DNA of 64,000 nt. Origin: a virus. Its lineage: Duplodnaviria; Caudoviricetes. The notes beneath the pieces are model-generated. The model was given only the letters and a program-made list of their open reading frames with translations. It made no database searches and was not told the DNA's origin. The DNA is taken from the IMG/VR virus record IMGVR_UViG_2868946205_000003. One strand, 5' to 3'. The translations under genes and the position numbers were made by a program. Each line of letters starts with the position of its first letter. The first letter of the stretch is position 1. Shown here piece by piece: positions 19,500-59,500 of this stretch.

Positions 19500-19529
19500 A
19501 GTGCTGTCCCGGTTTGGAAAACTCAGAAC

Positions 19530-19572
19530 AGTGTCGACGGAACCGTTAAATCTGGCTGTTAACCCCCATTAA
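19530..19572 (-). promoter_or_regulatory. Putative Mor-activated late promoter
   Basis: TTAA-N6-TTAA, 23 nt, GACACT. Confidence 0.7.
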
Positions 19573-19694
19573 GAAAAACGGGGAGCAAAGCCGGTTTGGT
19601 ATGATGGGAATAGTGCGGCTGTAAAGCCTTTATAAAGGAATTTAAGCCATTTTTCAGGATAGGCGGCACATTGGCTTAACCGTGCCGCCTGAAA

Positions 19695-26522: not shown

Positions 26523-26524
26523 AG

Positions 26525-26866
26525 CTATAGCCCCATCGCTACGGCCAGACAGACCGCCGCCACGATAATGGCGCGACGGATCAATGCCGCAGCAAATATC
26601 CGTTGATAGCCATTTTTGACCGGGTATTCGCCGTGCTTCATCCGTTCAGGCTCATGCACCAGGTACTGGCCTAGCGCCGACTTAGGGAACAATGAACGGT
26701 CGAGCCAGTAGCCCAACACTGCAGCCAGCGTGATCAATGAGATTTTGTAGATGACTACGGGGAGTTGCTGCGGTGATACCAACGCGATCACAGCCAGCAG
26801 TAACACGGCAGTCAGTTGCCAGCCGATAAGGCGCTTCAGGCGTGTGAGGCGAAAGAGGTTTTTCAT
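26525..26866 (-). CDS. Putative holin
   Basis: Three hydrophobic segments, GYWLDRSLFP; first late gene. Confidence 0.8.
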   Translation of the reverse strand: MKNLFRLTRLKRLIGWQLTAVLLLAVIALVSPQQLPVVIYKISLITLAAVLGYWLDRSLFPKSALGQYLVHEPERMKHGEYPVKNGYQRIFAAALIRRAIIVAAVCLAVAMGL

Positions 26867-28354: not shown

Positions 28355-29204
28355 TAATACTCTCCCGGTTTTCATCGTATGCCGTATCAATGAGGCGATA
28401 CATTGTTCCTGCAGGAGGGAAACGAGCATCGGTTGGTATTGATTGTTTGGAGACAATCCGATCTGCTATCAGATCTATGGGATGAACAACACCATCAGCT
28501 TCAAACACTTCAATCACTGCCTTCCTAGCTCCTAGATCAACCAGCTCCTGCATAGCAAATTTAATGCCCTGTTTGAGTCTGCCATCACTATCTCCACGTC
28601 TGGTATTAATCCCCATTACAACTTGCATTGTATCCGCGCCAGCCGCGCCAAGTAATTGAAGCGTTTTTTGACTGAAATCCGTATCGGGATACAGTTCTGG
28701 GTTACGAGGACGAGGGAGCGTCAAAGTGAGTTTCTTCATGTTGACGTCACCTTTCATAAGCATAGCAATAGCTTCTTTCCCTAGCAGAGGTGCAGCTTTT
28801 ACACTGGTTGAGAAAATTATCGATAAAAATGCAGTGAAACGGCTCATTCCCCCAGCCAAATGATTTCGGTGCCAACCAATAATATTGTGCTGTGAATAAT
28901 ATACAAAAAAGTTACGTTCAATAATGCCTTCATCTTCTTCTAAAGGAATCGGGGATGAATGTTTCCCAGGAGCTCCTTTATCAGGGATATCAGAATTACG
29001 GAATTTCCTTACCTCACCTGCATAAGTGCCGTCATCTCGCTTTTTCAAAGCCCAGATTTCCCTTGTGCAGCCTTCCCGATCAGACGAACTGGGTGACGTT
29101 TTATCTATAGCAGATTGAAATGCTGCATCAAGCGATGCCAGTCTTACAGATGGTTTAAATGACAACTGATAAAATTCAATTCGATAAGTTTTAACATCAC
29201 TCAT
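28314..29204 (-). CDS. RexA-like (DUF6731-type) soluble protein, putative defence sensor
   Basis: 296 aa, paired with a 4-TM gene downstream of the repressor; IPLEEDEGI.E.NFFVY motif. Confidence 0.6.
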   Translation of the reverse strand: MSDVKTYRIEFYQLSFKPSVRLASLDAAFQSAIDKTSPSSSDREGCTREIWALKKRDDGTYAGEVRKFRNSDIPDKGAPGKHSSPIPLEEDEGIIERNFFVYYSQHNIIGWHRNHLAGGMSRFTAFLSIIFSTSVKAAPLLGKEAIAMLMKGDVNMKKLTLTLPRPRNPELYPDTDFSQKTLQLLGAAGADTMQVVMGINTRRGDSDGRLKQGIKFAMQELVDLGARKAVIEVFEADGVVHPIDLIADRIVSKQSIPTDARFPPAGTMYRLIDTAYDENRESINAYIGSEDSGAIV

Positions 29205-40102: not shown

Positions 40103-42411
40103 GTGTATTAATCAGTGGCGTGTTAATGAATCCGGCAGGTGTACCTGTTTCCGGTGCTGAAGTTACCTTTAGTGCACTGACCAACGGGCCCTCGGTATTG
40201 AACGGTTTCTCTGCATCCGTCATGACCGATCAGGATGGTAATTACTCTATTCCGTTGGAGATCTGCGAGTACGCCATTTCAATCCAGAGCGATGGTTACA
40301 ATTCGGTCTATGGTTCGGTTTCTATTAATGAGAAGTCGACACCGGCGACGATCAATGAATTATTAAAACTGGCAGCGATGGAACAAACCGTTACGCCAGC
40401 GATCATTGTCTATTTCCGCGAAATCCAAACCGACGTTGCCGCGAAGTTGGCTACGATACAGACGTTGGGTACTAATGCGGCAGATGCTGCGAGTACCGCC
40501 ATTGCAGCCAAAAATGAGGCAGTTCAGTACGCCCAGGCTCTCAGCGCGGCGGTAGCTCAGGCACAGCAAGCCAGCGCGTCAGCGACTGCTTCAGCCAATA
40601 CAGCTACGGCTGCTAAAAATTCGGCTGAGACGGCGGCGGGAAATGCTCAGGCAACATTTGCTGGTGCAATGAAGAAATCCGCCAACGGGGCTGATATTGT
40701 TAACCCTGCCGCGTTTCGTGAAAACATTGGCCTGAGTAATGCAATGCTGAAGGGGGAATTCGGCTGGGGCGGTAGTACGCCAAGCATCACTGCACCGACG
40801 TTAAATGATTTTTTCGTCATTAATAAAGCTGCCAGTGGTTTATACAGCGCTGACCCCGCCGTTGTTGCGGGGCTCCCGCCGGGCTACGGACCGTGCATTC
40901 TCACGTGGACTTCAGGAACCCTAGGGGCGTACGGCGAGTTAACGGCGGTCGATGTGACCAATAGCAACCATCGAGCCGCAAGAAACGTGCTCACCGCTGA
41001 GGTTTGGCAGGGCTGGGATTACATTCCGCAATATAAAAACGATGACCCCGGATTTGTTCGCAATGCACTCGCCAATGAATACCAAACTGAATCAGATTTT
41101 ATGTATTCATTACGTCTTCAGCAAAACATAGGCAGCAGCTTAGTTAACGGGGATAACTGGAGATCGTTCGTAAATGTCAGGCACCGAGGGGGCCAAGGCA
41201 CTGATAGTCCCGACTGGGGGTATGCAATTATCGATGAGAATATGACTCAGGGGAATTATAACTCGTTCAAATTGTGGAAGACCCAAGCCGGGGTGTGGCT
41301 ACCACCAGTAGTTTTATGGCATACAGGGAATTTGGCACCGTTTACGCTTGACACTGATCAGGATATAACAGGGGTGAAATACTTTCGAAGAGATGGCAAC
41401 GCTTTCAATTTGAGGCCGTCGCCAAACCATTCATCTTATATTTTTTGCCAGGACACCGCCGACAAAAATAAATGGTATATAGGGACAGGTGCAGACAACA
41501 GCAACAATGCCGAGTTTTACAATTATATTGGTAGAACAGGTATAGAATTGACTGCGTTTGGTGATGTTAATCTTGTGGCTCCCAGCAATGCTCTCATTAA
41601 CAATAATATTGTGTGGCATGAGGGGAATCTTCAGAAACCCGCAAACCTAAACACTAGTCAGACCTTTACTGGAGATAAAGTATTCACAACACAGACATCA
41701 GTACGCGGGGCTTGGCCTTCATTTTTATTTTTCAATTCAGATATTCCGCCAACAACAGTCGGACATTTAACACGCATTGAAATCAGCATAGACGGAGCTA
41801 TTACACTAATAAGTAGGAACGCAACAGACACTATCGGGCAGAGGGTTATAACATTCCCGAAAATAACTGGCGGAAACGTTCTAGTCACGGGCAATAACGT
41901 GGTAGCTGATTCGGGCGGATTCTATAAAACCGCATCTCCCGTCATCAACATCTACGCCGACGGTTCATTTACTACTACACATGAAGCGATTGGCGTTAAT
42001 GTCGAACGGTTGAGCGAGGGGGTTTATAAAATCACCGGCTGTCAGGGTATGCACTCGGATGCGGCGTGGAATGGTATAGACGGCGGCGTCAGCAATCCGA
42101 AATGCCGGAACGACAAAGCGCTGCTGTGGAACAATTATGAGGTCGCTGAGGACGGTTCCGTCACTGTCTACACGTTCCACCGAGTTCACCCTGATGCGAT
42201 GCCGTTTGCGCAAAACCGTTTGACGCTGGATAAACAGCCATTTGACGCTAAAAAGGGACACAAACTCGAAGAAACATGGCCGGATCAGTCGCCTATTGAT
42301 GTTCCACGCGGCGCATTCATTCAAGTCCGCGTGAACATGCCAGGGCGCATCGAGCCGTATCACGCAATCAGCCACAGCAACGTTTACTGCAATACTATAT
42401 TCCTCGCTTAG
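40099..42411 (+). CDS. Tail fibre of outer phage
   Basis: Stf-like N-terminus (ISGVL..PAG.P), Ala-rich coil, C-terminal GFYKTASP fibre domain. Confidence 0.88.
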   Translation: MSVLISGVLMNPAGVPVSGAEVTFSALTNGPSVLNGFSASVMTDQDGNYSIPLEICEYAISIQSDGYNSVYGSVSINEKSTPATINELLKLAAMEQTVTPAIIVYFREIQTDVAAKLATIQTLGTNAADAASTAIAAKNEAVQYAQALSAAVAQAQQASASATASANTATAAKNSAETAAGNAQATFAGAMKKSANGADIVNPAAFRENIGLSNAMLKGEFGWGGSTPSITAPTLNDFFVINKAASGLYSADPAVVAGLPPGYGPCILTWTSGTLGAYGELTAVDVTNSNHRAARNVLTAEVWQGWDYIPQYKNDDPGFVRNALANEYQTESDFMYSLRLQQNIGSSLVNGDNWRSFVNVRHRGGQGTDSPDWGYAIIDENMTQGNYNSFKLWKTQAGVWLPPVVLWHTGNLAPFTLDTDQDITGVKYFRRDGNAFNLRPSPNHSSYIFCQDTADKNKWYIGTGADNSNNAEFYNYIGRTGIELTAFGDVNLVAPSNALINNNIVWHEGNLQKPANLNTSQTFTGDKVFTTQTSVRGAWPSFLFFNSDIPPTTVGHLTRIEISIDGAITLISRNATDTIGQRVITFPKITGGNVLVTGNNVVADSGGFYKTASPVINIYADGSFTTTHEAIGVNVERLSEGVYKITGCQGMHSDAAWNGIDGGVSNPKCRNDKALLWNNYEVAEDGSVTVYTFHRVHPDAMPFAQNRLTLDKQPFDAKKGHKLEETWPDQSPIDVPRGAFIQVRVNMPGRIEPYHAISHSNVYCNTIFLA

Positions 42412-42461
42412 TAATGAAAATTAGTTTTTTTAATTAATGGGATAAGAAAGACGTCCATCAA

Positions 42462-42511
42462 TTGACATCAACGGGAATATTACATACAGTTTTTACTGTA
42501 TGTATGTACAG
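42462..42511 (+). promoter_or_regulatory. Sigma70 promoter with LexA (SOS) box
   Basis: TTGACA-17-TACAGT, then CTGTATGTATGTACAG at 42496-42511. Confidence 0.9.
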
Positions 42512-42557
42512 TGAAATTGTTTTTAATTTCCATTTGACTAATCAAGGATATATTATC

Positions 42558-43886
42558 ATGACACAACCTTCATATTACAAAGATGGCGTTCCCTTTGATT
42601 CTACTGGGCAGGTAATTATTACGATCACAGGGGGGCCGACAGGTTCTTATCTAAATCCGTCATCAAATCCTAATGCATCAAGACCGGTATATGTAAACTG
42701 GCCAGGAATTAATGTTCCACATGGAGGCGGTGGGATTGTGAATTATAATCCTCGTAATCTACCTTTTTCCGGTTTATATTCCCTCCGAGAAGGGCAGAAG
42801 AAAATTAATCAATTTTTGGAGCAAGCTAGAAATGCCTACCCGAAAAATGTTGAGCAAGTAAAAGAAGAAGCAAACACGCTATTAAAAAACTTAAGAGAAT
42901 CAGGGCTTATTGGTAACTCTGAAATTAATTTAGCCGCAAACTCTCTACAGGAATCTGTCGACTCCTTGCAGGTAAATATTGAGTTAACCAAGTCGGGGGA
43001 GCTGCTAGTTAATAGTAAAACAAATGAGACTGAAAAAACTTTCATTGATTTTATGAATAACAATAAACTTTCGAATTTTATCGGAAAACCTGACGATATG
43101 ATTGATTTGGCTATAGCGACTACCGGCCAATGGTTTCATCGGTTATGGGATAGAACTGTACCACCAACGTTCGTTGAGGAAATTAAAGAAAAAAATAATC
43201 TTGTGACTTATCTTGATCGAGTGAAAATCGTAAATGATGATGTGTTAGATAAAAAAGAAAAATTAAATAACATTAAAAATTCATTTGAGGTCGAAAATGA
43301 GGTGCTTACAAAAACCAGTGAATTAATTGTAGGGATGGGGCAGGAAGTTGGTAGTCATTTAGGTGATAAGTATAAAGCTATCGCGGATGAAATAGCTGGT
43401 GATATCAGAAATTTTCAGGGAAAGAAAATCAGAAGTTTTGATGATGCGATGAAATCATTAGATAAAATCACATCAAATCCAGAAATGAAAATCAATAAAT
43501 CCGATAGGGACGCACTTATTAATGCATGGAAACATGTTGATGCCCAAGATATGGCAAATAAACTTGGCAACCTTGGCAAGGCGTTCAAGGTAGCAGACGT
43601 GGTGATAAAAATCGGAAAGGTTAGAGAAAAAAGCATTGAGGGCTATGAGACTGGCAACTGGAGCCCATTAATGTTAGAGGTGGAATCTTGGGTGTTGAGT
43701 GGGGTTGCATCTGGTGTTGCGTTGGGGATCCTTGCTTACGTAGCTCCAGCTATTGCAATGACTGTAGGATTGCCTGTGTCCGCGATAATGATAGCAGGGA
43801 TTATAGGGATTGGTTTGGTAGCATCATTTATAGATGACAAATTTGCTGATAAATTAAATAATGAACTAATTCGCCCTGTGCATTAA
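42558..43886 (+). CDS. Pore-forming colicin-like bacteriocin (colicin A-type pore domain)
   Basis: C-terminus IRSFDDAM..DAQDMANKLGNL..EGYETGNW.PLMLEVESW..IDDKFAD.LNNE.IRP; ATG 42558 with AAGGA RBS. Confidence 0.93.
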   Translation: MTQPSYYKDGVPFDSTGQVIITITGGPTGSYLNPSSNPNASRPVYVNWPGINVPHGGGGIVNYNPRNLPFSGLYSLREGQKKINQFLEQARNAYPKNVEQVKEEANTLLKNLRESGLIGNSEINLAANSLQESVDSLQVNIELTKSGELLVNSKTNETEKTFIDFMNNNKLSNFIGKPDDMIDLAIATTGQWFHRLWDRTVPPTFVEEIKEKNNLVTYLDRVKIVNDDVLDKKEKLNNIKNSFEVENEVLTKTSELIVGMGQEVGSHLGDKYKAIADEIAGDIRNFQGKKIRSFDDAMKSLDKITSNPEMKINKSDRDALINAWKHVDAQDMANKLGNLGKAFKVADVVIKIGKVREKSIEGYETGNWSPLMLEVESWVLSGVASGVALGILAYVAPAIAMTVGLPVSAIMIAGIIGIGLVASFIDDKFADKLNNELIRPVH

Positions 43887-43892
43887 ACATTG

Positions 43893-43915
43893 TGGCAGGT
43901 GGCTGACACCTGCCA
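43893..43915. terminator. Hairpin between convergent toxin and immunity genes
   Basis: TGGCAGGTG-GCTGA-CACCTGCCA. Confidence 0.65.
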
Positions 43916-43957
43916 TTTAACATTATCAATGTTTAACTATGACTTTTGTTATCTTTA

Positions 43958-44467
43958 TCACTTTCCTTTGAAAAAAGAAATAATAAAACTAAGATAATAT
44001 ACGGTAAAAATATAACAAACTGAAAATATTGAAATATAGAAAAATGTAAGTAGATAGTCATTTTCCGATATTACCTTTAGCCAGTTCCTTGAATCATTAA
44101 GTTCCTTGTTGTGAGCTAGTAATAAAATTGTGATTGTGAAGTACAAAACTGAAAATAAAATAAATACCCAGACTAATTTTTGGGTTGTCATTATTTTCTT
44201 GAATTCAAAGTGGCGGTATGATACTGCTATGAATAACAACGCCAGTAATGGTGATGCTTTGCAGTAAATATCCATGGCCTTACTCATTAGCAGGCTTTTA
44301 TTGGATGTGATTGTTGGGAGGTTTTTGAAAGTTGCAGCGAATTCATTAAGGATTAGAGCATCGGGGTTGTTTAAATGAATGATGAGGATTATGAATAAAG
44401 GTATTATTCCAATAATCAGTAAAAAAAACATTCTTTTCTCAATGCTATCGGTTCCTTGTTTACTCAT
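43958..44467 (-). CDS. Colicin A-type (Cai-like) immunity protein
   Basis: 169 aa, four hydrophobic segments, SKAMDIYCKASP motif, convergent with the toxin. Confidence 0.88.
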   Translation of the reverse strand: MSKQGTDSIEKRMFFLLIIGIIPLFIILIIHLNNPDALILNEFAATFKNLPTITSNKSLLMSKAMDIYCKASPLLALLFIAVSYRHFEFKKIMTTQKLVWVFILFSVLYFTITILLLAHNKELNDSRNWLKVISENDYLLTFFYISIFSVCYIFTVYYLSFIISFFKGK

Positions 44468-44680
44468 TTTTTAATCCCTCCAAGTATGTAAAGTTTGATG
44501 CATGGTTTTTAACTATGAAGAAATAGGATACTATTTTTAGTAAAAAGAAGTAAATTTGAATAATCTCAATGTTTGCATTTCTGATTAAATCTATGGTGCT
44601 GCTTGTGATTCATGAAGCAATTGAGCACTTATGCTAACAGGGGAGCACAGAATATGAGTTTATTTAGTGGCTGTTAAGCC

Positions 44681-44751
44681 TTGCCACAGTGAGTTATACG
44701 CGCTAAATTCCCCAAAGATACCAAGCCTCGCCTTAAAAGCGGGGCTTTTTT
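44681..44751 (+). promoter_or_regulatory. Promoter + short leader + terminator cassette, copy 1
   Basis: TTGCCA-17-TAAATT then AGCCTCGC/GCGGGGCT + T tract. Confidence 0.7.
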
Positions 44752-44772
44752 GTTTTCTGTTTCAGGATACCC

Positions 44773-46398
44773 ATGGCGACCATCGATATCACCACAATGC
44801 GCGGAACTATGCCACGCGTTGCTGAACACCTTTTGCCTGAATCTAACGCGACGGTAGCGGAGAACTGTCACTTTCGGCATGGCGTTATCACTCCTATGCT
44901 GGATGATACCGACCAGGGCAAGACCTTCACCTTCAAGCCCAAAACGATATTCCACTATCGAGATAGTTTTTGGTTTGCCTGGAGCAAGATCGTTGACGCG
45001 ATCCGCAGTCCGGTCGCCAATGATGATTATGGGCGCGTTTACTATACCGACGATGAATTTCCAAAGGTTACCTCTGCGCAGGTCGCGACGGGCGGCAACG
45101 GCAATTATCCCGCCGCTTTTTTCCGTCTTGGCGTCCCGGTCCCAGCTAACGCGATCGTCATTGGCACAATCACGCCACCGGCTGACGTTAAAGAAGATGA
45201 TCCTACTGATGATGAAACGCGTTTCTACACTGAAACCTATGTCACGGCATATGGTGAAGAGGGTCCGCCGGGGCCCGCCTCTGCGGAGCTGACGATAAAG
45301 TATTCTGGTAGTTCGATAGAACTACATTTGCAGCCGCCCGGACAGCAGAACAACAATATAACCAAACGCCGGATTTATCGTTCGGCGACCAGCAGTCAAG
45401 CGGCTGATTTCTTATTGGTGGCTGAACTGGACATTGCCGTTGGCGTATTTGTTGACGGTCTGTCAGATGCTCAGCTTAGCGCTTCACTGGAGACTTACGA
45501 TTATTACATGCCGCCGGATGGCATGATCGGCTTGTGCATGATGTCTAACGGCATTGCTGCTGGTTTTAAAGGCAATCAGGTGATGTTCAGTGAAGCCTAT
45601 TTGCCTTACGCATGGAAAGACAGCAACAAGCAGACCACGCAGGATGATGTTGTCGCGATCGCGCCAATAGGCACAACGTTGGTCGTCGGTACGAAAGGCA
45701 TTCCCTATATTTTTTCAGGCATTACGCCGTCGAATATCACATCAACGCATTCCCTGATCGCGCTGTCCTGCGTCTCACGCCAATCGATGGTAACGATGGA
45801 TGGCTTTGCTTTGTATGCCTCACCGAATGGTCTTGTTTCTATCAGTGCCGATGGCGCGGCAGCGATTGCCACGGCGAATATCATTGAGGCTAAGCAGTGG
45901 CGGAAAGATTTTAATCCGACAACTCTCCGAGCTTGGCGCGTGGAAAATGAATATCTGGCGTTGTATGACACAGATAACGGCGTGGCTGGGTTTATCTTCG
46001 ATCCTGCCAGCATGGATATTCGCCACATCACGACATCGTTTGATACAGCCTATAACGATCCATCTGGTGACACGCTCTATATCGTGAAAGGGCGGCAGCT
46101 ATATACGTTTAATGATGGCGCTTTCAACCTGAATATGCGCTGGCGGTCAAAGCAATATCTGGCTCCGGCGAATACGGCCTTTTCCTGCCTGCGAGTGATG
46201 AGTAATGCGTTATCGCACGTCGGCGTCATTCTGCATGTCGATGGTCGCGCAGCGTTGCATTTGCCGCCGGGCAGCCTGCGAGAGTCGTTAGTTAAGCTGC
46301 CTCCGATTCGTGGTAAACGCTGGCAGGTTGAAGTCTACGGCAGCGTGCAGGTTGACCGGATTACGTTAACTACATCGATGCAGGAAATGACAGCATGA
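44773..46398 (+). CDS. Putative tail nozzle/tubular protein
   Basis: 541 aa beta-rich; FSEAYLPYAW motif; position. Confidence 0.65.
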   Translation: MATIDITTMRGTMPRVAEHLLPESNATVAENCHFRHGVITPMLDDTDQGKTFTFKPKTIFHYRDSFWFAWSKIVDAIRSPVANDDYGRVYYTDDEFPKVTSAQVATGGNGNYPAAFFRLGVPVPANAIVIGTITPPADVKEDDPTDDETRFYTETYVTAYGEEGPPGPASAELTIKYSGSSIELHLQPPGQQNNNITKRRIYRSATSSQAADFLLVAELDIAVGVFVDGLSDAQLSASLETYDYYMPPDGMIGLCMMSNGIAAGFKGNQVMFSEAYLPYAWKDSNKQTTQDDVVAIAPIGTTLVVGTKGIPYIFSGITPSNITSTHSLIALSCVSRQSMVTMDGFALYASPNGLVSISADGAAAIATANIIEAKQWRKDFNPTTLRAWRVENEYLALYDTDNGVAGFIFDPASMDIRHITTSFDTAYNDPSGDTLYIVKGRQLYTFNDGAFNLNMRWRSKQYLAPANTAFSCLRVMSNALSHVGVILHVDGRAALHLPPGSLRESLVKLPPIRGKRWQVEVYGSVQVDRITLTTSMQEMTA

Positions 46399-52099: not shown

Positions 52100-52173
52100 T
52101 TCCCATAAGGGAACTTACGCGCTAAATTCCCCAAAGATACCAAGCCTCGCCTTAAAAAGCGGGGCTTTTTTTT
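52100..52173 (+). promoter_or_regulatory. Promoter + short leader + terminator cassette, copy 2
   Basis: TTCCCA-17-TAAATT; 52116-52171 matches 44697-44751 except one extra A. Confidence 0.7.
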
Positions 52174-52192: not shown

Positions 52193-55100
52193 GTGATGGT
52201 TTACGATCCACAACAGCAGCGCCCCGAACAGCAATTGACGAATAGCAACCGCCAGGCCCTCAATATTCAGCAGCCGGATGAACAGCAGCAATCTGCGGCA
52301 GCAGCCAATCCATATCAGCAGTTTTTCGCATCAGGTGGGTGGAACAAGCCGGTTGTCGAACCAAAATCGACTTGGGGTGATGATCTCAAGGCGCTGGCGG
52401 CAGCCCCTTTTAACATGGTAGCGAGTGTGGGGCAGTTATTCAAAGCAGACAAACAGGCGTTGGAAGATAGAGAGGTGGAGTTCAGAAGAGACGCAATGGC
52501 TAGAGGGATGAAACTCCCGTTCAGTGAGGATGAAGAAAAGTTCATACGGGAGTGGGGTGGCAATCCTCTTGATACTATAGGAACAAAGGTGATTATAGGT
52601 GCTGGCGATCTGGCTGAAAGTGCCGCCAAATCTATTTTGGACTCTCGAACCGAAGGTGCAAAGCAGGCGGCGGCTTTGGATTTTGCAACACTTGATCGAG
52701 ACAGTAACGGCAATGTCACGGGTGCCAGCGTGGGTGAAGGGACATTCAATGCTAGCTCATGGATGCAAAATGCAATTCCTAGTATAGCGACTATGATGAC
52801 ATCCGGTTTGTTATCAAAAATGTCAGCCAAAGCTGCTACGAAAATTGCAGAGCGGGCGACCTTCAACCGCCTTAGTAAAACCATGCCAGAAGAGGCCGCC
52901 CGGCAGATTGCCAAAGAAACCGCCGATCGTGCCGCAGTCGTTGCAGGGAAAACGACATTTGTTGGCGCTATGTCAGCAACCGCACAGGGTCAGGGCGGTA
53001 TCGACATGCGGGAGCAGATCAACAACCTGCCATTCAATGAGTTGATGGAAAGCCCCACGTTTCAATCTGCATTCAGTGCCGTCGATGCCAGCCCCAGCAA
53101 TGCCCATATGTCCGATACCCAAAAATTAGAATTAGCTCGCAGTCAGGTAGCCGAACAGGCCGCAAGTGCTGTAACTGCCGATCCCCGTCTGTTAGCTGTC
53201 AATATTGCTGCATCAATACTGGGTGACCATATCTTGTTGAAGCTGTTAACTCAGAAAAGCGCATCAGGGATTTTATCTGGCATGGCGACAGGGGCTGTGG
53301 CTGAAGGCGTTACTGAATTTGCTCAGGGTGCGACGCAACGGTATGCACAGAATGAACAATTGATTGACACTGCAGGGCAAAAAATCGATCCGATGAAAGA
53401 TGTCTTAGAGATCGGCCTTAATAATGCAGTGGTTGGCGCTGGCATGGGGAGCTCTATCGGTGCTGTCGGCGGTATGCGCGGTCGTAATAACCACTCAACA
53501 TCGGAACCGAATCCGAACATCGATACCAATCCGGCAACAGAGCAGCAATCGTCAACGCAGGTCGATGTACCCGAATGGCAGTCTTCAGAACAACCCTCTT
53601 CCGATGGCTCTGGTTCGTCTATTCCTGTCGTGAAAATGGGAGAAGATTCACCACCTCCAGGTTATGATGGCGAGTGGCGTGATGGCGGTCCCGTGATATC
53701 TGTTACTCAGGGGGCTGATAACTCACAATTCAATCCTGAAAATGTTGCTGGCACGCCGCAAAGTCGTATCGATGAGTTTCGTGATACACCAGCCTACCTC
53801 CGGCAAGATCCACGTGTTCAGGGGTTTGCTGAAGACAGTGATGTGCAACAAGCCTTATCTGAGCAGCAACCAGCCCCAACCGCAGAGCAACTGATTCGCC
53901 AGCAGATTGAGCAGGGCGATCAGGGGTATTCGCCGCAAGAGTTGGAGGCATTGGAGCAGGCTGAAAGCATTATCGCCGCGCGTCGTCCACGCCTTCCCGC
54001 ACCCGGTCAAACTTCGGTGATTGCTATGCCCGGCGACGTTCGCGCCCCCATTGGTGATGATGCGCAAGCAGGAATTGGCCCACAATTTGATGCAGGGCAG
54101 CAGGTGCGCGGGCAAGAATTCATTCCTGCTGAGCGGCCACCGGCTATCAATGAGGTTGGCCGTGCCAGTCAGACATATGACAGTGAGGCTGTGCCAATCA
54201 ACGCCATTGAGAATAAAAATATTATTTTCTCTGGTTCGCCGACTATCGACGAAGGCCAGACGGCACAGTCGCCGCAGTTTACTGAAGGGGAAACACACAG
54301 CCAGCGGCAGGCACGGGAATTTAGTGATGCGATGGGCGTTAACGATCAGGCCGCATTGCCCGATCAGAGCCATCGCGTCGGCGGTGTGCCCGTTGATGCG
54401 CAAACGGAAGCCTACGCGCGAGGGGAGCCGGTAGGAGAGTTGGAACTGTTTGCTCCGGGCAGGCCCTATTCCAGCGAACGAGTGGCCAAGGCCAGTAAAT
54501 GGGGGAAGATGCCAGGCGCAGAAATTGAGTCGGTTGGGGAGGGTTACGGTGTGCGTTTGCCGTCAAAACCTAAAGGTGATGGACAGCCTGCCAGTCAGCG
54601 TACAGATCTCGTGGCCAGCGAACCTGAAGCGGCGCTCGGAGAATTGAAACTCTACGCGCCCGACAAACCTTACTCCAGTGAAAGAGTGGCAAAAGCCTCT
54701 CGCTGGGGAAAAATGCCTGGCGCCACGATTGAAAAAGTTGACGGTGGCTATGCGGTGCGGTTACCTGCACCCAGGCAATCAAAACCGTATTATTCTCGAC
54801 AGGTAAATCGCAATGATGGACTTACCGTTCCTGAGACCCGCCGCATTGCCGATGATTTTGTGCGCGAGTACAATGGCAATATTCCATTAGATATTCGGGT
54901 ATATGCCCGACAGGAGGATGCTTATGGCCCGCAAGCAACGCGAGAAAACGTCGGCAGAATCAAGGGTGCGTATCATGCCGCCGGAGAAGGAAGGATCGTA
55001 CTTAACGCTGCCAGCATTCGTGACGCGGGCGACGGGAGAAGAACACTCCGTCACGAAGTGCTTGGCCACTATGGGCTCAACACCTTTAAGCCAGCGGATA

Positions 55101-58100
55101 AAAGACTGGTTCTTGATGCGATTCTTAAAGCACGGCAAGACCCAAAATTCCGAACGCTCTGGGAACAAATAGACAAACATTACAGCGATAAATCTGATTC
55201 TGTTCAGGCCGAAGAAGTCTTTGCTCATGCTGCTGAACTTGAGCGTGGCGAACGAGGTTCCCGTACTCGCCGCCGCGTTATCCCTGCCTCTGTTTTACAC
55301 GCTTTCCAGATGGCGCTGCGCCATAGTGGTTTGGTTAAAGGGCCGATGAAAATCAGCGAGCTTTACGATGCAGTGGATGCGGTCGCTGATGGTATTCGTA
55401 ATGGCCGACGAAAGCAGCAGACCTTTCCTAAAACCGATCAGGATCAGTTCCGACGGGACAATAAACACAAGCAAAACGCCTCCAAATCTGGGGGCGTTTC
55501 TGTTTCTGGTGCTGATATCGGCGGCGGCAACATCATTTACGATGGTAGCTTTAGCCGTGATGGCAGTAAGCCAGAAAGCGGTATGTCGCGCGACCGCGTA
55601 CAGTTGGCCGCCGATGGGTTTGTCTCCCACCTTAACGGAGCGGCCAAAATTAAAGTGAAAGCGGTGCAGACGCAGGCCGAAGCCGCCGCGATGATGCCTA
55701 ACGGCATTTCTGCGGAATTCGGCACAGTTCATGCCATTTACCAGCCAGAGTTGAGCCGTGTGATTGTCATCGCGGACAACATCGCAAACGCCCGTGAACT
55801 ACGTGCCAAGTTGCGTCATGAAGTGATTGCGCACCATGGCTTAGCGTCAGTGATTGGCGATGTGGAATACGACCGCATCATGCGTGTGCTACACCAGACG
55901 CGGGACAGCCAGAATAAAACCATTCAGGATGTTTGGCAGCAGGTTGAGCAATCCTATGGGCAAGAGTCACTAGAAACGCAGGCGAATGAGTTTTTGGCGC
56001 ACATGGCGGAGCGTACCGAGCTAACGAAGTTGGGTGGTGTGTGGGATCGTTTCGTTACGCTGTTGACCAATGCGCTGCGCAAAGCTGGTGTGCTTAACCC
56101 TATGGATATCACGCCAGCGGAGATCAGCAACATTCTGCGCACCATCACCGGCCGCTTCCAGAAAACGGCGATGTATGCCAACGAGCAGCCAGGCACCCGC
56201 GAGTTCGATAACACTTTCTCGCGCACCGATGCGCTGTACTCAAAAGCGGATGAGGATGTTGACCCTCTGCGGCCATTATCGCAGGAGGCGGAACAGTACC
56301 GCGCCGATCTTGACCGAGCTATGCGGTCGTTGAAGTCTGGTGAGATTAATATTGGATTGGGTCGAACCCCCGCCGTATTGCTTGCAACGGGAGCACCAGA
56401 TTTGCCTATGGCTATATCACGAGATGTCGTGAGGAAAGCAAGTAATGGCATCAAACATGATGTACCGATGGATGTTATTTCACGATTACCAGAGCTTCTC
56501 CACGATCCAGAGGCTGTGTTCGAGTCGAAGACTCAGAACAATGGAGCTGCTGTATTACTAAACGCTAAAGATAGCTCAGGGCGGCAGGTGATGGCCGCAG
56601 TTCATATGCAGGTGCAATCAGGACGTTTAATTATTAACCGCATTGCCAGTGTGTATGGACGGGATGCTAAACAGTACCAAGGCTGGATCGAGGAAGGGTT
56701 GCTGCGTTATCGAAGGGTGAAAAAGAAAAACCCTGATAACCCTCATTCACAGGGGCTCCAATTGCCCAAGGAGGAGCGTTCTTATCAGGGTTCTAAACCC
56801 GAATCCGGTACGACCCAAGGGCTGCAATTGCCCCAGCGTGGTTCTCCGGATCAAGGTTCAAGTAAAAATATACTCTCTTCTGCCGACATCCGCAAGAATA
56901 AGACGCTGTACTCCCGCTCTGGCAATCCAGCACTGGACGCCGAAACCAGCCGCAAAATGGGCTTCAACGTCGAAAAAGGCTGGTTTGATAAAGCCAAAGA
57001 CTTCTACCAGATGGCTGCCGACAGCGATCGGACGGAACTGAAGCAGTGGTGGCAAGAAACCTTCCGTAAGCTGAACACCAAGACCTTTGACGGGCTTGCC
57101 CCATTAAAATATGCCGAAGATGCGGTGGGTAAATCTGATGCGATGGTTTCCGGCTACACGGCGGCGCGTATGTCAGCAGGTGCAGGCTCGGTGACATCGG
57201 CAGTTCTTGAACATGGCCTGGTGCGCTATAACAAGAAAGAGGGGATTACTGAACGCATTCCGGGTACAGGTAAGGCTGATTCTTTGATGGGCATTCTGGA
57301 CGGGCTCGGTAACCACCGTGAAAACTTCCTCAAGTGGATCGCCGGCCACCGCTCTGAGCGCCTCATGTCCGAGGGCAAAGAGAATAATTTTACCGCTGAT
57401 GAGGTTGCCTACATGAAATCGCTGAACCATGGGAATGAGCAACTGTTTGCCGATCAAAAGATAAAATACGATGCGTTTATCAAGTCCATCATCGATCTAC
57501 AGCAGGACATGGGGTTGATTGATGCGAATAGCCGAGCGACATGGGAGGATGCCTGGTATCTGCCGTATTACCGTGAAGCAGAAAACGGCGAAACACACGG
57601 CCCGTGGACGACACGCGGCATTGCCAACCAGAGCAGCACCATCCGTAAACTGAAAGGCTCCGACCTCACTATCAAAGACCCGATTGAAAACCTGTTCAAC
57701 TACGTTGCTAAGTCGGTTGATGCGTCGATGAAGAACGAGGCTATGCGCCGTTCTGTCACGAATCTGGCCGATACTGGGGTCATCGATATTATCGATAGCC
57801 CCAACGAGATGGATTACCAACGCCTAAAGAAAGACACAGTGAAGGTATTTGTTGATGGCAAAGAGCAACTGGCTCGCGTCAATGATCCCGACCTTTATCG
57901 CGCTTTCACTATGATTGATCTGGAACGTAGCAATTCTCTGTTCATGCGAGCTGCACGGCAGGCCAAGCGCGTGTTGACCATCGGCACCACATCTATGCCT
58001 GATTTCATTATTCGCAACTTCATGCGTGATGCCGTCCATTCATGGGCGATCAATAAAGATGGCTTCAAGTCCGCGATTTCCTCATGGCAGGGGCTGAAAA

Positions 58101-59500
58101 AGGCGATGCGCACAGATGATACGCTGGTTGATATGATGTTTGCCGGCGCTACGTTTGGTGGTGGCTATTCCAATGTTTACGATCCGGCGGGTACAGCTTC
58201 CAGCATCCGTAAGGTGCTGCGGCGTAAAGGTTATCACGACAGCCAGATCCGAGAATTTGAATCATCGATTGTGCGCAATAGCAAAGAGGTGATGGATAAA
58301 ATCGGAGCTGGGCTGAGCAAATATCAGAAGGTTAGTGAAGGGGCAGAGAATGCGAACCGTATCGCGACTTACGATGCGGCGCTAAAGGCAGGAAAGAGCA
58401 AGGCACAGGCTGCCTTTGAATCTCGCGATCTGATGGATTTCAGTATGCAGGGATCGAGCAGTGTTGTTATCGCGCTATCTGATATGGTTCCCTTCTTCAA
58501 TGCACGCTTGCAGGGTATGAGCAAACTTGGGCGCGCCATTAAAGCCGATCCGCGTGAAGTGTTGAAACGTGGTGGTTACATAGCGGGTTTATCACTGGCG
58601 TTGCTGGCGATGAACTGGGGCGATGAACGCTATGAAGAGCTACCTGATTGGGATAAAGACGCCTACTGGCATGCATGGATTGGCGATCAGCATTTTCGCA
58701 TCCCTAAACCGTTTGAGATCGGTTTGATGTTCGGCACTCTGCCAGAGCGTTTTACTCGAGCGCTCGGCGGTGAGGACACTCCTGGGAAATTTGGGAAAGT
58801 GGTAGCACGTAACTTCTTTGAAACGATGGCATTCAACCCGATACCGCAGGTGACGCGCCCCATTCTGGAAGCGTTCGTGAATTACGACTTCTTCAAAGGT
58901 GGCCCGATTGAGAACATGGCTGATAGCAACGTCATTGCCGGAGCGCGTTATAACGACCAAACCACGCTGTTGATGCGCGAAATAGGCGGTGCGATGAATC
59001 TTTCTCCTAAAATGATGGATCACATCATTACCGGATATACCGGCACGCTAGGTTCATACATTCTCGGCGCGACGAATATTATCATGCGTAACATGGGTGA
59101 TAACGGTGCGTCGCCGTCGATGCGGCTGGATGAAATGCCTGTCATCAAGGCGTTCGCCCGTGGGGCCGATCCGGCGAAATCCACCCAGTTCACTGAGGAC
59201 TTCTACCGCATGATGACGGAAGCCAACCAGATAAACAGCACGATTAATGATTATCGGAAGCAGGGGAAACTGGGTGAGGCTAATGAGTTGCTGCAAGACA
59301 ACCGTGAAAAACTATCGCAGCGCAAGGTATTCACGGCAACACAAAAGCAGGTGAAGCAACTCAACGACCAAATCGAGCTAACCCGGATTGATCGCATCTT
59401 AACGGCAGACCAGAAGCGAGAGCGTATTGATCGCCTGATGGGTAAGCGGAATAAACTGGTTCAGCAGACCGTGAAGCGGATACATCCGTATTTTGACTAA
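52193..59500 (+). CDS. Giant polyvalent virion/ejection protein (two zincin-like domains, MuF-C/PBECR-like domain, LPD38-like C-terminus)
   Basis: 2435 aa; LRHEVLGH and LRHEVIAH; KHDVP..LPELL.DP..NRIASVYGR; YEELPDWDKD.YW..RIPKPFE. Confidence 0.8.
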   Translation: MMVYDPQQQRPEQQLTNSNRQALNIQQPDEQQQSAAAANPYQQFFASGGWNKPVVEPKSTWGDDLKALAAAPFNMVASVGQLFKADKQALEDREVEFRRDAMARGMKLPFSEDEEKFIREWGGNPLDTIGTKVIIGAGDLAESAAKSILDSRTEGAKQAAALDFATLDRDSNGNVTGASVGEGTFNASSWMQNAIPSIATMMTSGLLSKMSAKAATKIAERATFNRLSKTMPEEAARQIAKETADRAAVVAGKTTFVGAMSATAQGQGGIDMREQINNLPFNELMESPTFQSAFSAVDASPSNAHMSDTQKLELARSQVAEQAASAVTADPRLLAVNIAASILGDHILLKLLTQKSASGILSGMATGAVAEGVTEFAQGATQRYAQNEQLIDTAGQKIDPMKDVLEIGLNNAVVGAGMGSSIGAVGGMRGRNNHSTSEPNPNIDTNPATEQQSSTQVDVPEWQSSEQPSSDGSGSSIPVVKMGEDSPPPGYDGEWRDGGPVISVTQGADNSQFNPENVAGTPQSRIDEFRDTPAYLRQDPRVQGFAEDSDVQQALSEQQPAPTAEQLIRQQIEQGDQGYSPQELEALEQAESIIAARRPRLPAPGQTSVIAMPGDVRAPIGDDAQAGIGPQFDAGQQVRGQEFIPAERPPAINEVGRASQTYDSEAVPINAIENKNIIFSGSPTIDEGQTAQSPQFTEGETHSQRQAREFSDAMGVNDQAALPDQSHRVGGVPVDAQTEAYARGEPVGELELFAPGRPYSSERVAKASKWGKMPGAEIESVGEGYGVRLPSKPKGDGQPASQRTDLVASEPEAALGELKLYAPDKPYSSERVAKASRWGKMPGATIEKVDGGYAVRLPAPRQSKPYYSRQVNRNDGLTVPETRRIADDFVREYNGNIPLDIRVYARQEDAYGPQATRENVGRIKGAYHAAGEGRIVLNAASIRDAGDGRRTLRHEVLGHYGLNTFKPADKRLVLDAILKARQDPKFRTLWEQIDKHYSDKSDSVQAEEVFAHAAELERGERGSRTRRRVIPASVLHAFQMALRHSGLVKGPMKISELYDAVDAVADGIRNGRRKQQTFPKTDQDQFRRDNKHKQNASKSGGVSVSGADIGGGNIIYDGSFSRDGSKPESGMSRDRVQLAADGFVSHLNGAAKIKVKAVQTQAEAAAMMPNGISAEFGTVHAIYQPELSRVIVIADNIANARELRAKLRHEVIAHHGLASVIGDVEYDRIMRVLHQTRDSQNKTIQDVWQQVEQSYGQESLETQANEFLAHMAERTELTKLGGVWDRFVTLLTNALRKAGVLNPMDITPAEISNILRTITGRFQKTAMYANEQPGTREFDNTFSRTDALYSKADEDVDPLRPLSQEAEQYRADLDRAMRSLKSGEINIGLGRTPAVLLATGAPDLPMAISRDVVRKASNGIKHDVPMDVISRLPELLHDPEAVFESKTQNNGAAVLLNAKDSSGRQVMAAVHMQVQSGRLIINRIASVYGRDAKQYQGWIEEGLLRYRRVKKKNPDNPHSQGLQLPKEERSYQGSKPESGTTQGLQLPQRGSPDQGSSKNILSSADIRKNKTLYSRSGNPALDAETSRKMGFNVEKGWFDKAKDFYQMAADSDRTELKQWWQETFRKLNTKTFDGLAPLKYAEDAVGKSDAMVSGYTAARMSAGAGSVTSAVLEHGLVRYNKKEGITERIPGTGKADSLMGILDGLGNHRENFLKWIAGHRSERLMSEGKENNFTADEVAYMKSLNHGNEQLFADQKIKYDAFIKSIIDLQQDMGLIDANSRATWEDAWYLPYYREAENGETHGPWTTRGIANQSSTIRKLKGSDLTIKDPIENLFNYVAKSVDASMKNEAMRRSVTNLADTGVIDIIDSPNEMDYQRLKKDTVKVFVDGKEQLARVNDPDLYRAFTMIDLERSNSLFMRAARQAKRVLTIGTTSMPDFIIRNFMRDAVHSWAINKDGFKSAISSWQGLKKAMRTDDTLVDMMFAGATFGGGYSNVYDPAGTASSIRKVLRRKGYHDSQIREFESSIVRNSKEVMDKIGAGLSKYQKVSEGAENANRIATYDAALKAGKSKAQAAFESRDLMDFSMQGSSSVVIALSDMVPFFNARLQGMSKLGRAIKADPREVLKRGGYIAGLSLALLAMNWGDERYEELPDWDKDAYWHAWIGDQHFRIPKPFEIGLMFGTLPERFTRALGGEDTPGKFGKVVARNFFETMAFNPIPQVTRPILEAFVNYDFFKGGPIENMADSNVIAGARYNDQTTLLMREIGGAMNLSPKMMDHIITGYTGTLGSYILGATNIIMRNMGDNGASPSMRLDEMPVIKAFARGADPAKSTQFTEDFYRMMTEANQINSTINDYRKQGKLGEANELLQDNREKLSQRKVFTATQKQVKQLNDQIELTRIDRILTADQKRERIDRLMGKRNKLVQQTVKRIHPYFD
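56720..56859 (-). ncRNA. Putative antisense RNA of two tandem ~66-nt stem-loops inside the giant gene
   Basis: Promoter TTGCGG-17-TATATT (56895-56867); two GAACC..GGGC-AAUUGSA-GCCC..GGGUUU units; U-tract after the last stem. Confidence 0.6.

What the first reader, a model, noticed from the sequence alone, without database searches (positions are those of the whole stretch)
42462..44467. Prophage-borne chimeric pore-forming bacteriocin: colicin-E1-like N-terminus, unrecognised middle, colicin-A-like pore
SEEN: AT-rich moron between tail genes with TTGACA-17-TACAGT, a consensus LexA box, a 442-aa toxin, a convergent 4-TM immunity gene and no lysis gene. KNOWN (from recalled sequences): YYKDGVPFDSTGQVIIT resembles the colicin E1 N-terminus (YYKDGVPYDDKGQVIIT), while the last ~200 aa closely follow colicin A. 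The soluble Pectobacterium bacteriocins I know are nucleases (carocins) or cell-wall-targeting pectocins M/P. INFERENCE: a possibly new pore-forming bacteriocin with an unknown receptor-binding region, released by SOS-coupled phage or tailocin lysis.
Basis: partly seen in the sequence, partly recalled or inferred. Interest (0 to 1): 0.7.

Follow-up and report, generated by a model that had tools for sequence, protein, structure and literature searches.

The report
Prophage-borne colicin-like pore toxin cassette
A prophage of a soft-rot-type plant bacterium carries a DNA-damage-inducible gene pair for a colicin-like membrane-pore toxin and its immunity protein: a new combination of known parts, not a new kind of weapon.

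Summary
Window 42412-44695 is a 2.3-kb AT-rich insert between a tail-fibre gene and an internal-virion-protein gene. The prophage is integrase-type and Stx-phage-like; its nearest relatives are in Pectobacterium.

The insert carries:
- a TTGACA-17-TACAGT promoter and one near-consensus LexA box;
- a 442-aa toxin;
- a convergent 169-aa, four-segment immunity gene (Pfam Colicin_im);
- no lysis gene.

The toxin has two modules rather than three.
- **Residues 246-442** are a colicin-A-type pore domain: 73% identical to colicin A, E 5e-91 to PDB 1COL.
- **Residues 1-245** are one conserved but rare delivery module, with 20 representative clusters among 1.84 billion proteins. In Serratia, Erwinia, Mixta and E. 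coli it is fused to E1/Ia-type pores, HNH DNases or colicin-D tRNases.
- Only its first 25-31 residues resemble colicin E1. The rest is a disordered Gly-rich stretch plus a helical bundle with no specific structural match.

None of 17 related prophage loci carries the cassette; that slot holds other cargo. No full-length match exceeds 37% identity.

Most likely it is an SOS-induced bacteriocin released by prophage lysis. This release step, Tol-dependent import and the receptor are inferred. It is a new member of a known kind. Telomere-phage "telocins" (2025) are the precedent.

The parts
42412..44695 (.). The 2.3-kb AT-rich insert (moron) between the tail-fibre stop codon and the point where related prophages become alignable again
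   Evidence: DNA homology to 17 related loci ends by about 42394 and resumes at 44693-44698. GC is 0.28-0.42 here against about 0.5 in the flanks. No flanking repeats above chance.
42462..42490 (+). Sigma-70-type promoter TTGACA-17-TACAGT
   Evidence: Best-scoring site in the region, 10 of 12 matches. A consensus match only; activity was not tested.
42494..42513 (+). Single LexA (SOS) box TACTGTATGTATGTACAGTG, 4 nt downstream of the -10 hexamer
   Evidence: 1 mismatch to the 20-nt consensus. The call lists 3 matches at up to 3 mismatches (this site on both strands plus one 3-mismatch site), 0.84 expected by chance. The consensus itself is recalled from memory.
42558..43886 (+). Toxin gene, 442 aa plus stop (P0001); Shine-Dalgarno AAGGA at 42544-42548
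   Evidence: Pfam Colicin PF01024 at 53.1 bits against a cut-off of 23.4.
42558..42650 (+). Residues 1-31: colicin-E1-like N-terminal motif (YYKDGVP.D..GQVIIT), predicted beta-hairpin; inferred Tol(A)-engaging epitope
   Evidence: 6wxh_D E 4.7e-5. Family profile E 1.9e-6. BLASTP against pColE1 Cea gives 64% over 25 residues. pLDDT about 82, strands at 6-8 and 11-13. The TolA box is placed in E1's first 40 residues by PMC9020818 (passages read).
42651..42773 (+). Residues 32-72: Gly/Pro/Asn-rich, predicted disordered stretch with family-invariant P43, V46, G58, Y63
   Evidence: pLDDT below 50 at 25-42 and 49-61. Invariant columns.
42774..43292 (+). Residues 73-245: elongated helical bundle; presumed receptor-binding/translocation body of the shared delivery module
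   Evidence: pLDDT 83-96, helices 73-93, 98-115, 121-168, 179-187, 191-200 and 202-249. 33-59% identical to family members. Foldseek found nothing at E 1e-3 or better. Best VIA-align Z is 9.2, within the generic range for helical proteins.
43293..43883 (+). Residues 246-442: colicin-A-type pore-forming domain with a long hydrophobic hairpin
   Evidence: 1col_A E 4.6e-91, ungapped over 198 residues; colicins S4, B and N follow. 73.1% identical to ColA, 79.7% to P0004, 71.3% to the P. aroidearum protein.
43893..43915 (.). GC-rich stem-loop between the two convergent genes (likely bidirectional terminator or attenuator)
   Evidence: RNA fold of 43880-43960 gives -26.5 kcal/mol, z = -5.25, with 0 of 200 shuffles as stable. 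There is no T-run, so terminator function is an inference.
43958..44467 (-). Immunity gene, 169 aa (P0002), A-type with four hydrophobic segments; GGAGG precedes its ATG
   Evidence: Pfam Colicin_im at 69.3 bits against 25.8. 34.8% identical to Cai of pColA. Nearest database relatives are 35-38% identical. Hydropathy.
44468..44695 (-). AT-rich non-coding arm that must hold the immunity gene's own promoter
   Evidence: Only a weak consensus match, TTAACA-17-TATTCT at 44677-44649. No plausible ORF. Inference.
44697..44751 (+). 55-nt phage-backbone element with a terminator-like hairpin (44723-44747 plus T-run). It marks the right edge of the slot and is not part of the cassette.
   Evidence: Repeated at 52116-52171. 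27-nt cores lie upstream of the lysis and scaffold genes. Present twice in several relatives. Hairpin.

Best explanation
The cassette is a colicin-like bacteriocin system carried as cargo by a temperate phage.

**Shown by homology**
- The 442-aa protein ends in a colicin-A-type pore-forming domain.
- The convergent 169-aa inner-membrane protein is an A-type immunity protein. It would protect the lysogen by blocking the pore's hydrophobic hairpin in the membrane.
- The toxin gene has its own strong promoter, overlapped just downstream by one LexA box.
- The first 245 residues are a self-contained delivery module. In other Enterobacterales the same module is fused to E1/Ia-type pores, DNases and tRNases. 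This protein therefore arose by swapping an A-type pore-plus-immunity unit onto it.

**Inferred**
- DNA damage removes LexA repression and the toxin accumulates in the cytoplasm.
- The cassette has no colicin lysis gene, so release most likely rides on phage lysis, which the same SOS signal triggers. The host prophage has a CI-like S24 repressor, a Q-like antiterminator, an endolysin, two holins and an Rz spanin. The Mu-like prophage inserted into it has its own holin, endolysin and spanin.
- On the target cell, the helical body (residues 73-245) binds an unidentified outer-membrane receptor.
- The disordered stretch threads through an outer-membrane protein.
- The E1-like N-terminal beta-hairpin engages the Tol system, probably TolA.
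- The pore domain then depolarises the inner membrane.
For: **Pore domain.** Pfam PF01024 at 53.1 bits against 23.4. 1col_A at E 4.6e-91, ungapped over 198 residues. 73.1% identical to ColA.

**Immunity.** PF03857 at 69.3 bits against 25.8. Four hydrophobic segments. The convergent toxin/immunity layout matches pColA.

**SOS control.** Promoter and LexA box with 1 mismatch to the 20-nt consensus.

**Cargo status.**
- 0 of 17 related prophage loci have toxin or immunity by tblastn at E 1e-5 or better. Thirteen of them span both flanks, and L005/L016 and L009/L017 are duplicates.
- Homology breaks at about 42394 and 44696.
- The same slot holds unrelated small genes in relatives.
- There is a clear GC dip.

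**Modularity.**
- 17 clusters share residues 1-245 at 36-57% identity.
- Of the 13 scanned proteins with the module, 7 have pore domains, 2 have Col-Pyo DNase, 2 have Colicin_D and 2 have Pyocin_S only.
- Pores checked in five members carrying the module are only 23-29% identical to this one.

**E1-like tip.**. The TolA box is placed in E1's first 40 residues by PMC9020818 (passages read).

**Lysis machinery.** Record 18349-21475 holds Q-like, endolysin, two holins and Rz; a CI-like repressor is at 9887-10843. The Mu-like holin, endolysin and Rz are at window 25142-26866.

**Precedent.** Phage-encoded pore-forming bacteriocin-immunity pairs (telocins) kill competitors; PMC12042878 (abstract and passages read).

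**Persistence in nature.** The identical toxin and immunity each occur on 20 public contigs.
Against: - No experiment or expression data exists. The only RNA-library trace is one 156-nt identical contig (X3), which could be contaminating DNA.
- There is one LexA box, whereas I recall that most colicin operons have two overlapping boxes.
- None of the 6 chromosomal loci with the same N-module has a CTG-N10-CAG within 260 nt upstream. So SOS control is not a family trait.
- Release by phage lysis is pure inference. Several colicins without lysis genes exist (recalled), and the passages read show the telocin TelA expressed in phage-carrying host cells.
- The host prophage's late region is split by a 36-kb Mu-like insertion. 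This may disturb late-gene timing, although the lysis genes lie upstream of the insertion.
- The E1 likeness covers only 25-31 residues. E1's TolC box and BtuB-binding region have no counterpart, so the import route is weakly grounded.
- N-terminally truncated toxin variants of 277 and 382 aa exist in other genomes. The toxin is therefore dispensable in some lineages.
Confidence: 0.75

Rival explanations
1. The same bacteriocin, but released without phage lysis. Release would be by leakage, vesicles or low-level constitutive expression in lysogens, as reported for telocin A and, as I recall, for colicins that lack lysis genes. The prophage would be only a vehicle.
For: There is no lysis gene in the cassette. 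TelA was detected among the few phage proteins expressed in phage-carrying host cells (PMC12042878 abstract and passages). The cassette has its own promoter and is bounded by hairpins, so it is transcriptionally independent of the late operon.
Against: A near-consensus LexA box right at the promoter argues for tight repression until SOS. That is the same signal that cleaves CI-type repressors. Cytoplasmic colicins have no signal peptide, so some lysis-like step is normally needed (established knowledge).
Confidence: 0.3
2. Import is TonB-dependent rather than Tol-dependent. On this reading the N-terminal beta-strand (GQVIITIT) acts as a TonB box that pairs with TonB, as in group B colicins and telocin A.
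For: The conserved N-terminal segment is a short hydrophobic beta-strand, the general form of TonB boxes (recalled). TelA import needs OmpK36, TonB and ExbB (PMC12042878). Nuclease members of the module family carry Pyocin_S domains, which are common in TonB-dependent pyocins (recalled).
Against: The only characterised protein sharing the motif is colicin E1. It is TolA-dependent, with its TolA box in the first 40 residues (PMC9020818). No classic acidic-residue TonB-box pentapeptide is evident in the sequence (my reading).
Confidence: 0.2
3. The toxin is an inactive or decaying relic, and what selection keeps is the immunity gene, as protection against relatives' bacteriocins.
For: Truncated toxin versions (277 and 382 aa) occur in the toxin's 90% cluster on 5.2-Mb contigs; an immunity variant (P0155) also occurs on a contig of that length.
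Against: In this window the ORF is intact. Its pore domain aligns ungapped to colicin A. All 29 family-invariant N-module positions are kept. The identical full-length protein occurs on 20 contigs, and promoter, SOS box and RBS are intact.
Confidence: 0.07

Closest known systems
Colicin A system of pColA (caa-cai-cal)
   Same: The pore domain is 73% identical and aligns ungapped to 1COL. The immunity protein belongs to the same Pfam family and is encoded convergently just downstream. Both are SOS-type promoters.
   Different: The first 245 residues are unrelated to colicin A's T and R domains. The immunity protein is only 34.8% identical, so it is likely a separate immunity group. There is no cal-type lysis gene. 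The location is a prophage, not a small plasmid.
Colicin E1
   Same: Residues 2-26 are 64% identical to the E1 N-terminus, the region said to hold E1's TolA box (PMC9020818).
   Different: Nothing else matches. There is no TolC-box or BtuB-binding counterpart, the pore is A-type rather than E1-type, and the immunity protein has four hydrophobic segments rather than being E1-type.
Uncharacterised 'E1-tip plus helical bundle' delivery-module family (Serratia, Erwinia, Mixta, E. coli pSTEC640_2 and others)
   Same: Residues 1-245 are 36-57% identical, with 29 invariant positions. The overall bacteriocin architecture is the same.
   Different: Those members carry E1/Ia-type pores, HNH DNase or colicin-D tRNase domains. 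This is the only member found with an A-type pore. The 6 loci found in species-representative genomes lie on large (105 kb-5.4 Mb) chromosome-scale contigs and lack a LexA-like box.
Telocins of Klebsiella telomere (N15-like) phages (PMC12042878)
   Same: Both are phage-encoded pore-forming bacteriocin plus inner-membrane immunity pairs in a variable cargo slot, absent from some sibling phages. The telocin phages are the only 5 of 50,697 phage records with a pore-domain match.
   Different: Pore domains are only about 40% identical. The vehicle here is an integrated, integrase-type, Stx-phage-like podovirus-type prophage, not a linear plasmid prophage. The host family is different.
Characterised Pectobacterium soluble bacteriocins (carocins S1-S4 and D, pectocins M1, M2 and P)
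   Same: Same presumed ecological role and host genus.
   Different: Those are nucleases or cell-wall-targeting toxins (titles and abstracts listed). No pore-former from the genus appears in the papers found (passages of PMC6963963 and PMC6813493).

Membership tests
Pore-forming colicins, A-type subgroup (colicins A, B, N, S4) | C-terminal colicin pore-forming domain (Pfam PF01024) above the curated threshold | tested here: met
   53.1 bits against a cut-off of 23.4, residues 259-435
Pore-forming colicins, A-type subgroup (colicins A, B, N, S4) | Closer to the A, S4, B and N pores than to the E1, Ia and Ib pores, with the long hydrophobic hairpin | tested here: met
   E 4.6e-91 to 4.2e-67 for A, S4, B and N, against 1.9e-13 to 5e-10 for Ib, S5, E1 and Ia. 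Ungapped over the hairpin.
Pore-forming colicins, A-type subgroup (colicins A, B, N, S4) | Demonstrated channel formation and killing | not testable with these tools
   Needs purified protein, indicator strains and a membrane-depolarisation assay
A-type colicin immunity proteins (Cai-like) | Pfam Colicin_im (PF03857) match and four membrane-spanning segments | tested here: met
   69.3 bits against 25.8. Four hydrophobic segments by Kyte-Doolittle analysis.
A-type colicin immunity proteins (Cai-like) | Specific protection against the cognate toxin | not testable with these tools
   Needs an immunity assay. Only 34.8% identical to Cai.
Classical colicin operon | SOS (LexA)-controlled promoter in front of the toxin gene | tested here: met
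   One box with 1 mismatch, 4 nt after the -10 hexamer. Sequence evidence only.
Classical colicin operon | Lysis (release) lipoprotein gene downstream | tested here: not met
   No candidate among the 10 ORFs of 20 aa or more in 44440-44780. pColA, pColE1 and pSTEC640_2 each have one.
Classical colicin operon | Plasmid-borne | tested here: not met
   Lies within an integrated provirus record between phage structural genes
Colicin E1 family | E1-type T domain with TolC box and BtuB-binding coiled-coil R domain | tested here: not met
   BLASTP to pColE1 Cea matches only residues 2-26. hhalign aligns only pore regions.
Telocins (bacteriocins of telomere phages) | Encoded by an N15-like linear-plasmid telomere phage | tested here: not met
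   The vehicle has an integrase and lambdoid CI/Q/lysis genes, and its structural genes are nearest to Stx2a-converting phages. A protelomerase was not specifically searched for.
E1-tip plus helical-bundle delivery-module family (unnamed) | Full-length alignment of residues 1-245 that keeps the family-invariant positions | tested here: met
   16 relatives at 37-56% identity, 29 invariant columns. E 1e-40 to 1e-83.

The most novel reading that the evidence does not exclude
A lysis-gene-less colicin that has handed its release step over to prophage lysis. The carrier would be a Stx-phage-like prophage whose virion-gene operon has been split by a Mu-like insertion. It would be kept in a plant-pathogen lineage chiefly as an SOS-triggered device for releasing bacteriocin. 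The toxin's 245-residue front end would define an unstudied import module, with an E1-type Tol epitope plus a new receptor-binding helical bundle. Enterobacterales would reuse this module for pores, DNases and tRNases, and it would target a receptor not yet exploited by any known colicin.
Probability: 0.3. Interest if true: 0.6.

Novelty: new member of a known kind. Interest (0 to 1): 0.42.

Why it matters
No pore-forming soluble bacteriocin of Pectobacterium turned up in three library searches. This one would be a candidate narrow-spectrum agent against soft-rot bacteria.

It is also a second, independent case of a temperate phage carrying a colicin-type pore toxin, after the Klebsiella telocins. 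The phage here is of a quite different type and sits in a plant-associated host.

The shared 245-residue delivery module is rare and uncharacterised. Finding its receptor and its Tol or Ton dependence would add an import route to the colicin catalogue.

None of this changes how such systems are understood. All the parts are of known kinds.

Tried and rejected
- **The genome search 'relatives'** is not available for a virus record. Related loci were found with the search for related loci instead.
- **Close-relative scans with the toxin** found nothing in genome contigs or viral contigs. Megablast of the cassette against phages also found nothing. The tools warn that the window's own genome may be left out, so this is not evidence of rarity.
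- **Fold searches of the N-module** gave no specific match. The best Foldseek hit was the pyocin S2 receptor-binding domain 5odw_C at E 0.23. The best VIA-align Z was 9.2, to unrelated helical proteins, with colicin E9 and Ia coiled coils at Z about 7. These values are below the level the tool says is meaningful for helical proteins, so no fold assignment is made.
- **ESM Atlas** gave no usable hit.
- **PHROGs, NCBIfam and the P. aroidearum locus.** PHROGs and NCBIfam have no family for toxin or immunity. A scan with P0006 to fetch the P. aroidearum locus returned only a Cedecea locus, which was not followed.
- **Repeats.** No direct or inverted repeats bracket the cassette beyond short AT-rich chance matches, so the insertion mechanism is unknown.
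- **Sequencing runs.** Apart from the probable source (X1), only three runs hold short identical contigs of 55-191 nt (four contigs in all). One of them is an RNA-seq library. That is too little to claim expression or habitat.
- **TolB box.** I considered and rejected a TolB box: no DG[ST]GW-type motif in the sequence (my reading; the motif is recalled).
- **Tailocin release.** I considered tailocin-mediated release. The contractile-tail gene set in the window belongs to a complete Mu-like prophage with head genes, not to a tailocin.
Full report
**What is there**

The window is the last 64 kb of a 93,086-base IMG/VR provirus record.

- **Toxin gene.** At 42558-43886 (+) lies a 442-aa ORF. It is preceded by AAGGA and by the promoter TTGACA-17-TACAGT at 42462-42490. 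That is the best sigma-70-like site in the region, though such sites are not enriched there overall.
- **LexA box.** Four bases after the -10 hexamer sits TACTGTATGTATGTACAGTG (42494-42513). It has one mismatch to the recalled 20-nt LexA consensus. At up to 3 mismatches the call lists 3 matches in the window: this site on both strands and one 3-mismatch site, against 0.84 expected by chance.
- **Immunity gene.** Converging on the toxin gene from 44467 to 43958 is a 169-aa ORF. It matches Pfam Colicin_im at 69.3 bits against a cut-off of 25.8 and has four hydrophobic segments.
- **Stem-loop.** A stable GC stem-loop separates the two stop codons: -26.5 kcal/mol, z = -5.25.
- **No lysis gene.** No small lipoprotein-type ORF follows.
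- **Base composition.** GC falls to 0.28-0.42 across 42400-44700, against about 0.5 on either side.

**The toxin, domain by domain**

Residues 245-442 align without gaps to the colicin A pore-domain structure 1COL at E 4.6e-91. Colicins S4, B and N follow, and the E1/Ia/Ib group is far behind at E 1e-13 to 1e-10. Identity over residues 246-442 is 73.1% to colicin A, 79.7% to the best database protein (P0004) and 71.3% to an annotated 'colicin-like pore-forming protein' of Pectobacterium aroidearum.

Residues 3-31 match colicin E1 residues 4-33:
- E 4.7e-5 with the fragment alone;
- E 1.9e-6 with a family profile;
- 64% identity over 25 residues against Cea of pColE1.

Beyond that tip nothing in E1 matches.

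Residues 32-245 have no Pfam, NCBIfam, PHROG or PDB-sequence match.

**The 'unrecognised middle' is part of a conserved module**

Searching residues 1-245 alone in the 5.8-billion-protein collection gave 17 clusters. An exhaustive phmmer search of 1.84 billion representatives gave 20 hits at E 1e-3 or better and 14 at E 1e-10 or better.

The full 245 residues align end to end at 37-56% identity with 29 invariant positions. The relatives come from Serratia, Erwinia, Mixta, E. coli and unnamed metagenome contigs.

After residue ~245 they diverge completely. Of the 14 proteins scanned, 13 carry the module:
- 7 have colicin pore domains; the pores checked in five module-carrying members are only 23-29% identical to this one;
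- 2 have Pyocin_S plus an HNH-type DNase;
- 2 have Pyocin_S plus the colicin D tRNase;
- 2 have Pyocin_S plus an unassigned C-terminus.

An E. coli mobilisable plasmid, pSTEC640_2, encodes a 626/637-aa version. It carries a colicin-D-type end, a colicin D immunity gene, a lysis gene and a LexA-like box.

So the protein is best read as two modules: a rare, portable delivery module joined to an A-type pore. It is the only member found with that combination.

An AlphaFold2 model of residues 1-250, built on the 17-sequence alignment, has mean pLDDT 80.9 and pTM 0.80. It shows:
- a short beta-hairpin at residues 6-13;
- a disordered Gly/Pro/Asn-rich stretch, with pLDDT below 50 at 25-42 and 49-61;
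- an elongated bundle of long helices at 73-249, with pLDDT 83-96.

Foldseek found nothing at E 1e-3 or better; its best hit was the pyocin S2 receptor-binding domain at E 0.23. The exhaustive VIA-align search peaked at Z 9.2 on unrelated helical proteins, which the tool itself rates as non-specific for helical folds.

The architecture is a short epitope, a disordered thread and a helical body. That is what colicin T and R regions generally look like, but no specific family can be assigned.

**The immunity protein**

It is only 34.8% identical to Cai of pColA. It is at most 44% identical to anything in 72,556 plasmid records. It is 35-38% identical to its three nearest neighbours in the large protein collection. 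With a 73%-identical pore but a 35%-identical immunity protein, a separate immunity specificity is likely. This is an inference.

**Genomic setting**

The flanking genes are phage structural genes: an SU10-type adaptor, a tail fibre, an internal virion protein, tail-tip fibres and a 2,435-aa DarB-like protein.

The upstream part of the record holds an integrase, a CI-like S24 repressor, a Q-like antiterminator, an endolysin, two holins, an Rz spanin, terminase, portal and capsid genes.

The internal virion protein is 53% identical to those of Stx2a-converting phages and Escherichia phage PhiR12_3. It is 80-95% identical to prophage copies in Pectobacterium fontis, P. betavasculorum, Pectobacterium sp., Symbiopectobacterium and Brenneria. 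The host is therefore most likely a Pectobacterium; this rests on the relatives, since the record itself is unnamed.

In 0 of 17 related loci is there a toxin or immunity homologue. Thirteen of those loci span both flanking genes, and two pairs are the same DNA from two collections. DNA homology stops near 42394 and resumes at 44693-44698.

In the relatives the same slot holds other small genes: a trypsin-like lipoprotein, a YdgH/BhsA-like protein, a resolvase fragment and several unknowns. The cassette is thus one of many alternative cargoes at a variable site between two late transcription units. No bracketing repeats reveal how it arrived.

**How common**

- In the phage collection only 5 of 50,697 records encode a matching pore domain, at about 40% identity. 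All five are Klebsiella phage records, one of them NAR688; the four ~52-55-kb records besides Kpn74 match at the same level. NAR688 is the telomere phage whose 'telocin' toxins were described in 2025 (PMC12042878; abstract and passages read).
- The identical toxin and immunity proteins each occur on 20 public contigs, the longest 5.1 Mb.
- The 90% cluster also contains N-terminally truncated versions of 277 and 382 aa from contigs of up to 5.2 Mb.
- Species-representative genomes hold only 6 loci with the N-module, all on large (105 kb-5.4 Mb) contigs of Serratia (four), Erwinia and Rouxiella. None has a LexA-like box within 260 nt upstream.

**Mechanism**

Shown by homology: an A-type pore toxin, a cognate-type immunity protein and an SOS-type promoter.

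Inferred:
1. LexA cleavage after DNA damage switches the toxin on.
2. Because there is no lysis gene, the toxin leaves the cell when a prophage lyses it. The carrier prophage's CI/Q/holin-endolysin-spanin genes are intact and lie upstream of the Mu-like insertion. The Mu-like prophage has its own lysis cassette.
3. The helical body binds an unknown outer-membrane receptor.
4. The E1-like tip engages the Tol system. The eLife study of colicin E1 places its TolA box within the first 40 residues (PMC9020818, passages).

TonB dependence remains a live alternative.

Expression evidence is limited to one identical 156-nt contig in one RNA-seq run. That proves nothing.

**Literature**

Three full-text searches found only nuclease carocins and cell-wall-targeting pectocins as characterised soluble bacteriocins of the genus. 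I also read passages of two Pectobacterium genome and competition papers. Neither paper contains the term 'pore-forming'; one reports unnamed colicin-like and colicin/pyocin-like bacteriocins. The papers' supplementary tables were not opened. Subscription-only papers are outside the library.

**Verdict**

This is a real, intact, well-formed bacteriocin cassette. All of its parts belong to known kinds, but the combination is new and so is the vehicle. The delivery module has not been studied. It is a new member of a known kind, of moderate interest.

Noticed in passing
window 2479-38409: A Mu/BcepMu-like transposable prophage of about 35.9 kb is inserted into the colicin-carrying prophage. It sits between a virion structural gene (2045-2428) and the next structural gene (38422). 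Its ends read TG...CA and it is flanked by an AAGGAT duplication. In the 12 related loci where both genes were found they are about 60-210 bp apart (13 loci carry this flank; one lacks the second gene). The early genes (Ner-like, MuA, MuB, Mor) run rightward from about 31114. The late genes (holin/endolysin/Rz, heads, contractile tail, fibres, Gin-like invertase) run leftward from about 26866.
   Followed up: partly
window 44697-44751 and 52116-52171; record positions 19567-19593 and 28526-28552: A 55-nt element ending in a terminator-like hairpin is repeated upstream of the internal-virion-protein gene and of the 2,435-aa gene. 27-nt cores lie upstream of the lysis genes and the scaffold gene. 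It also occurs twice in several related prophages. It may be a late-operon regulatory signal.
   Followed up: partly
L005 6440-6904, L008 6006-6893, L014 6113-6772, L007 6527-6817, L015 6561-6896 and others: The tail-fibre / internal-virion-protein intergenic slot is a cargo hot spot in related prophages. It holds a trypsin-like lipoprotein, a YdgH/BhsA-like protein, a resolvase fragment and several ORFs with no family.
   Followed up: partly
window 52193-59500: A 2,435-aa ORF in the prophage's structural region with DarB-like antirestriction and methyltransferase-type PHROG matches.
   Followed up: no
window 61771-63362 (minus strand): A second Mor-like late activator and a second CI-like repressor lie near the end of the record. 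They suggest part of yet another phage-like element next to the colicin-carrying prophage.
   Followed up: no
L030, L032, L033 at about 3510-4930: In three of the four Serratia loci, the N-module bacteriocin genes are preceded by a conserved 383-398-aa gene of unknown role. These loci lack a LexA-like box, which hints at a different regulation in those species.
   Followed up: no
proteins P0153, P0154, P0155: The toxin's 90% cluster includes versions annotated only from residue 61 or 166 onward, on contigs of up to 5.2 Mb. An immunity variant (P0155) also occurs on a contig of that length. This may be decay of the toxin with retention of immunity.
   Followed up: partly
L001 (E. coli plasmid pSTEC640_2) 2962-5352: An intact 626/637-aa bacteriocin gene is not listed in the plasmid's gene table. 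It has this N-module and a colicin-D-type tRNase end, followed by a colicin D immunity gene and a lysis gene.
   Followed up: partly
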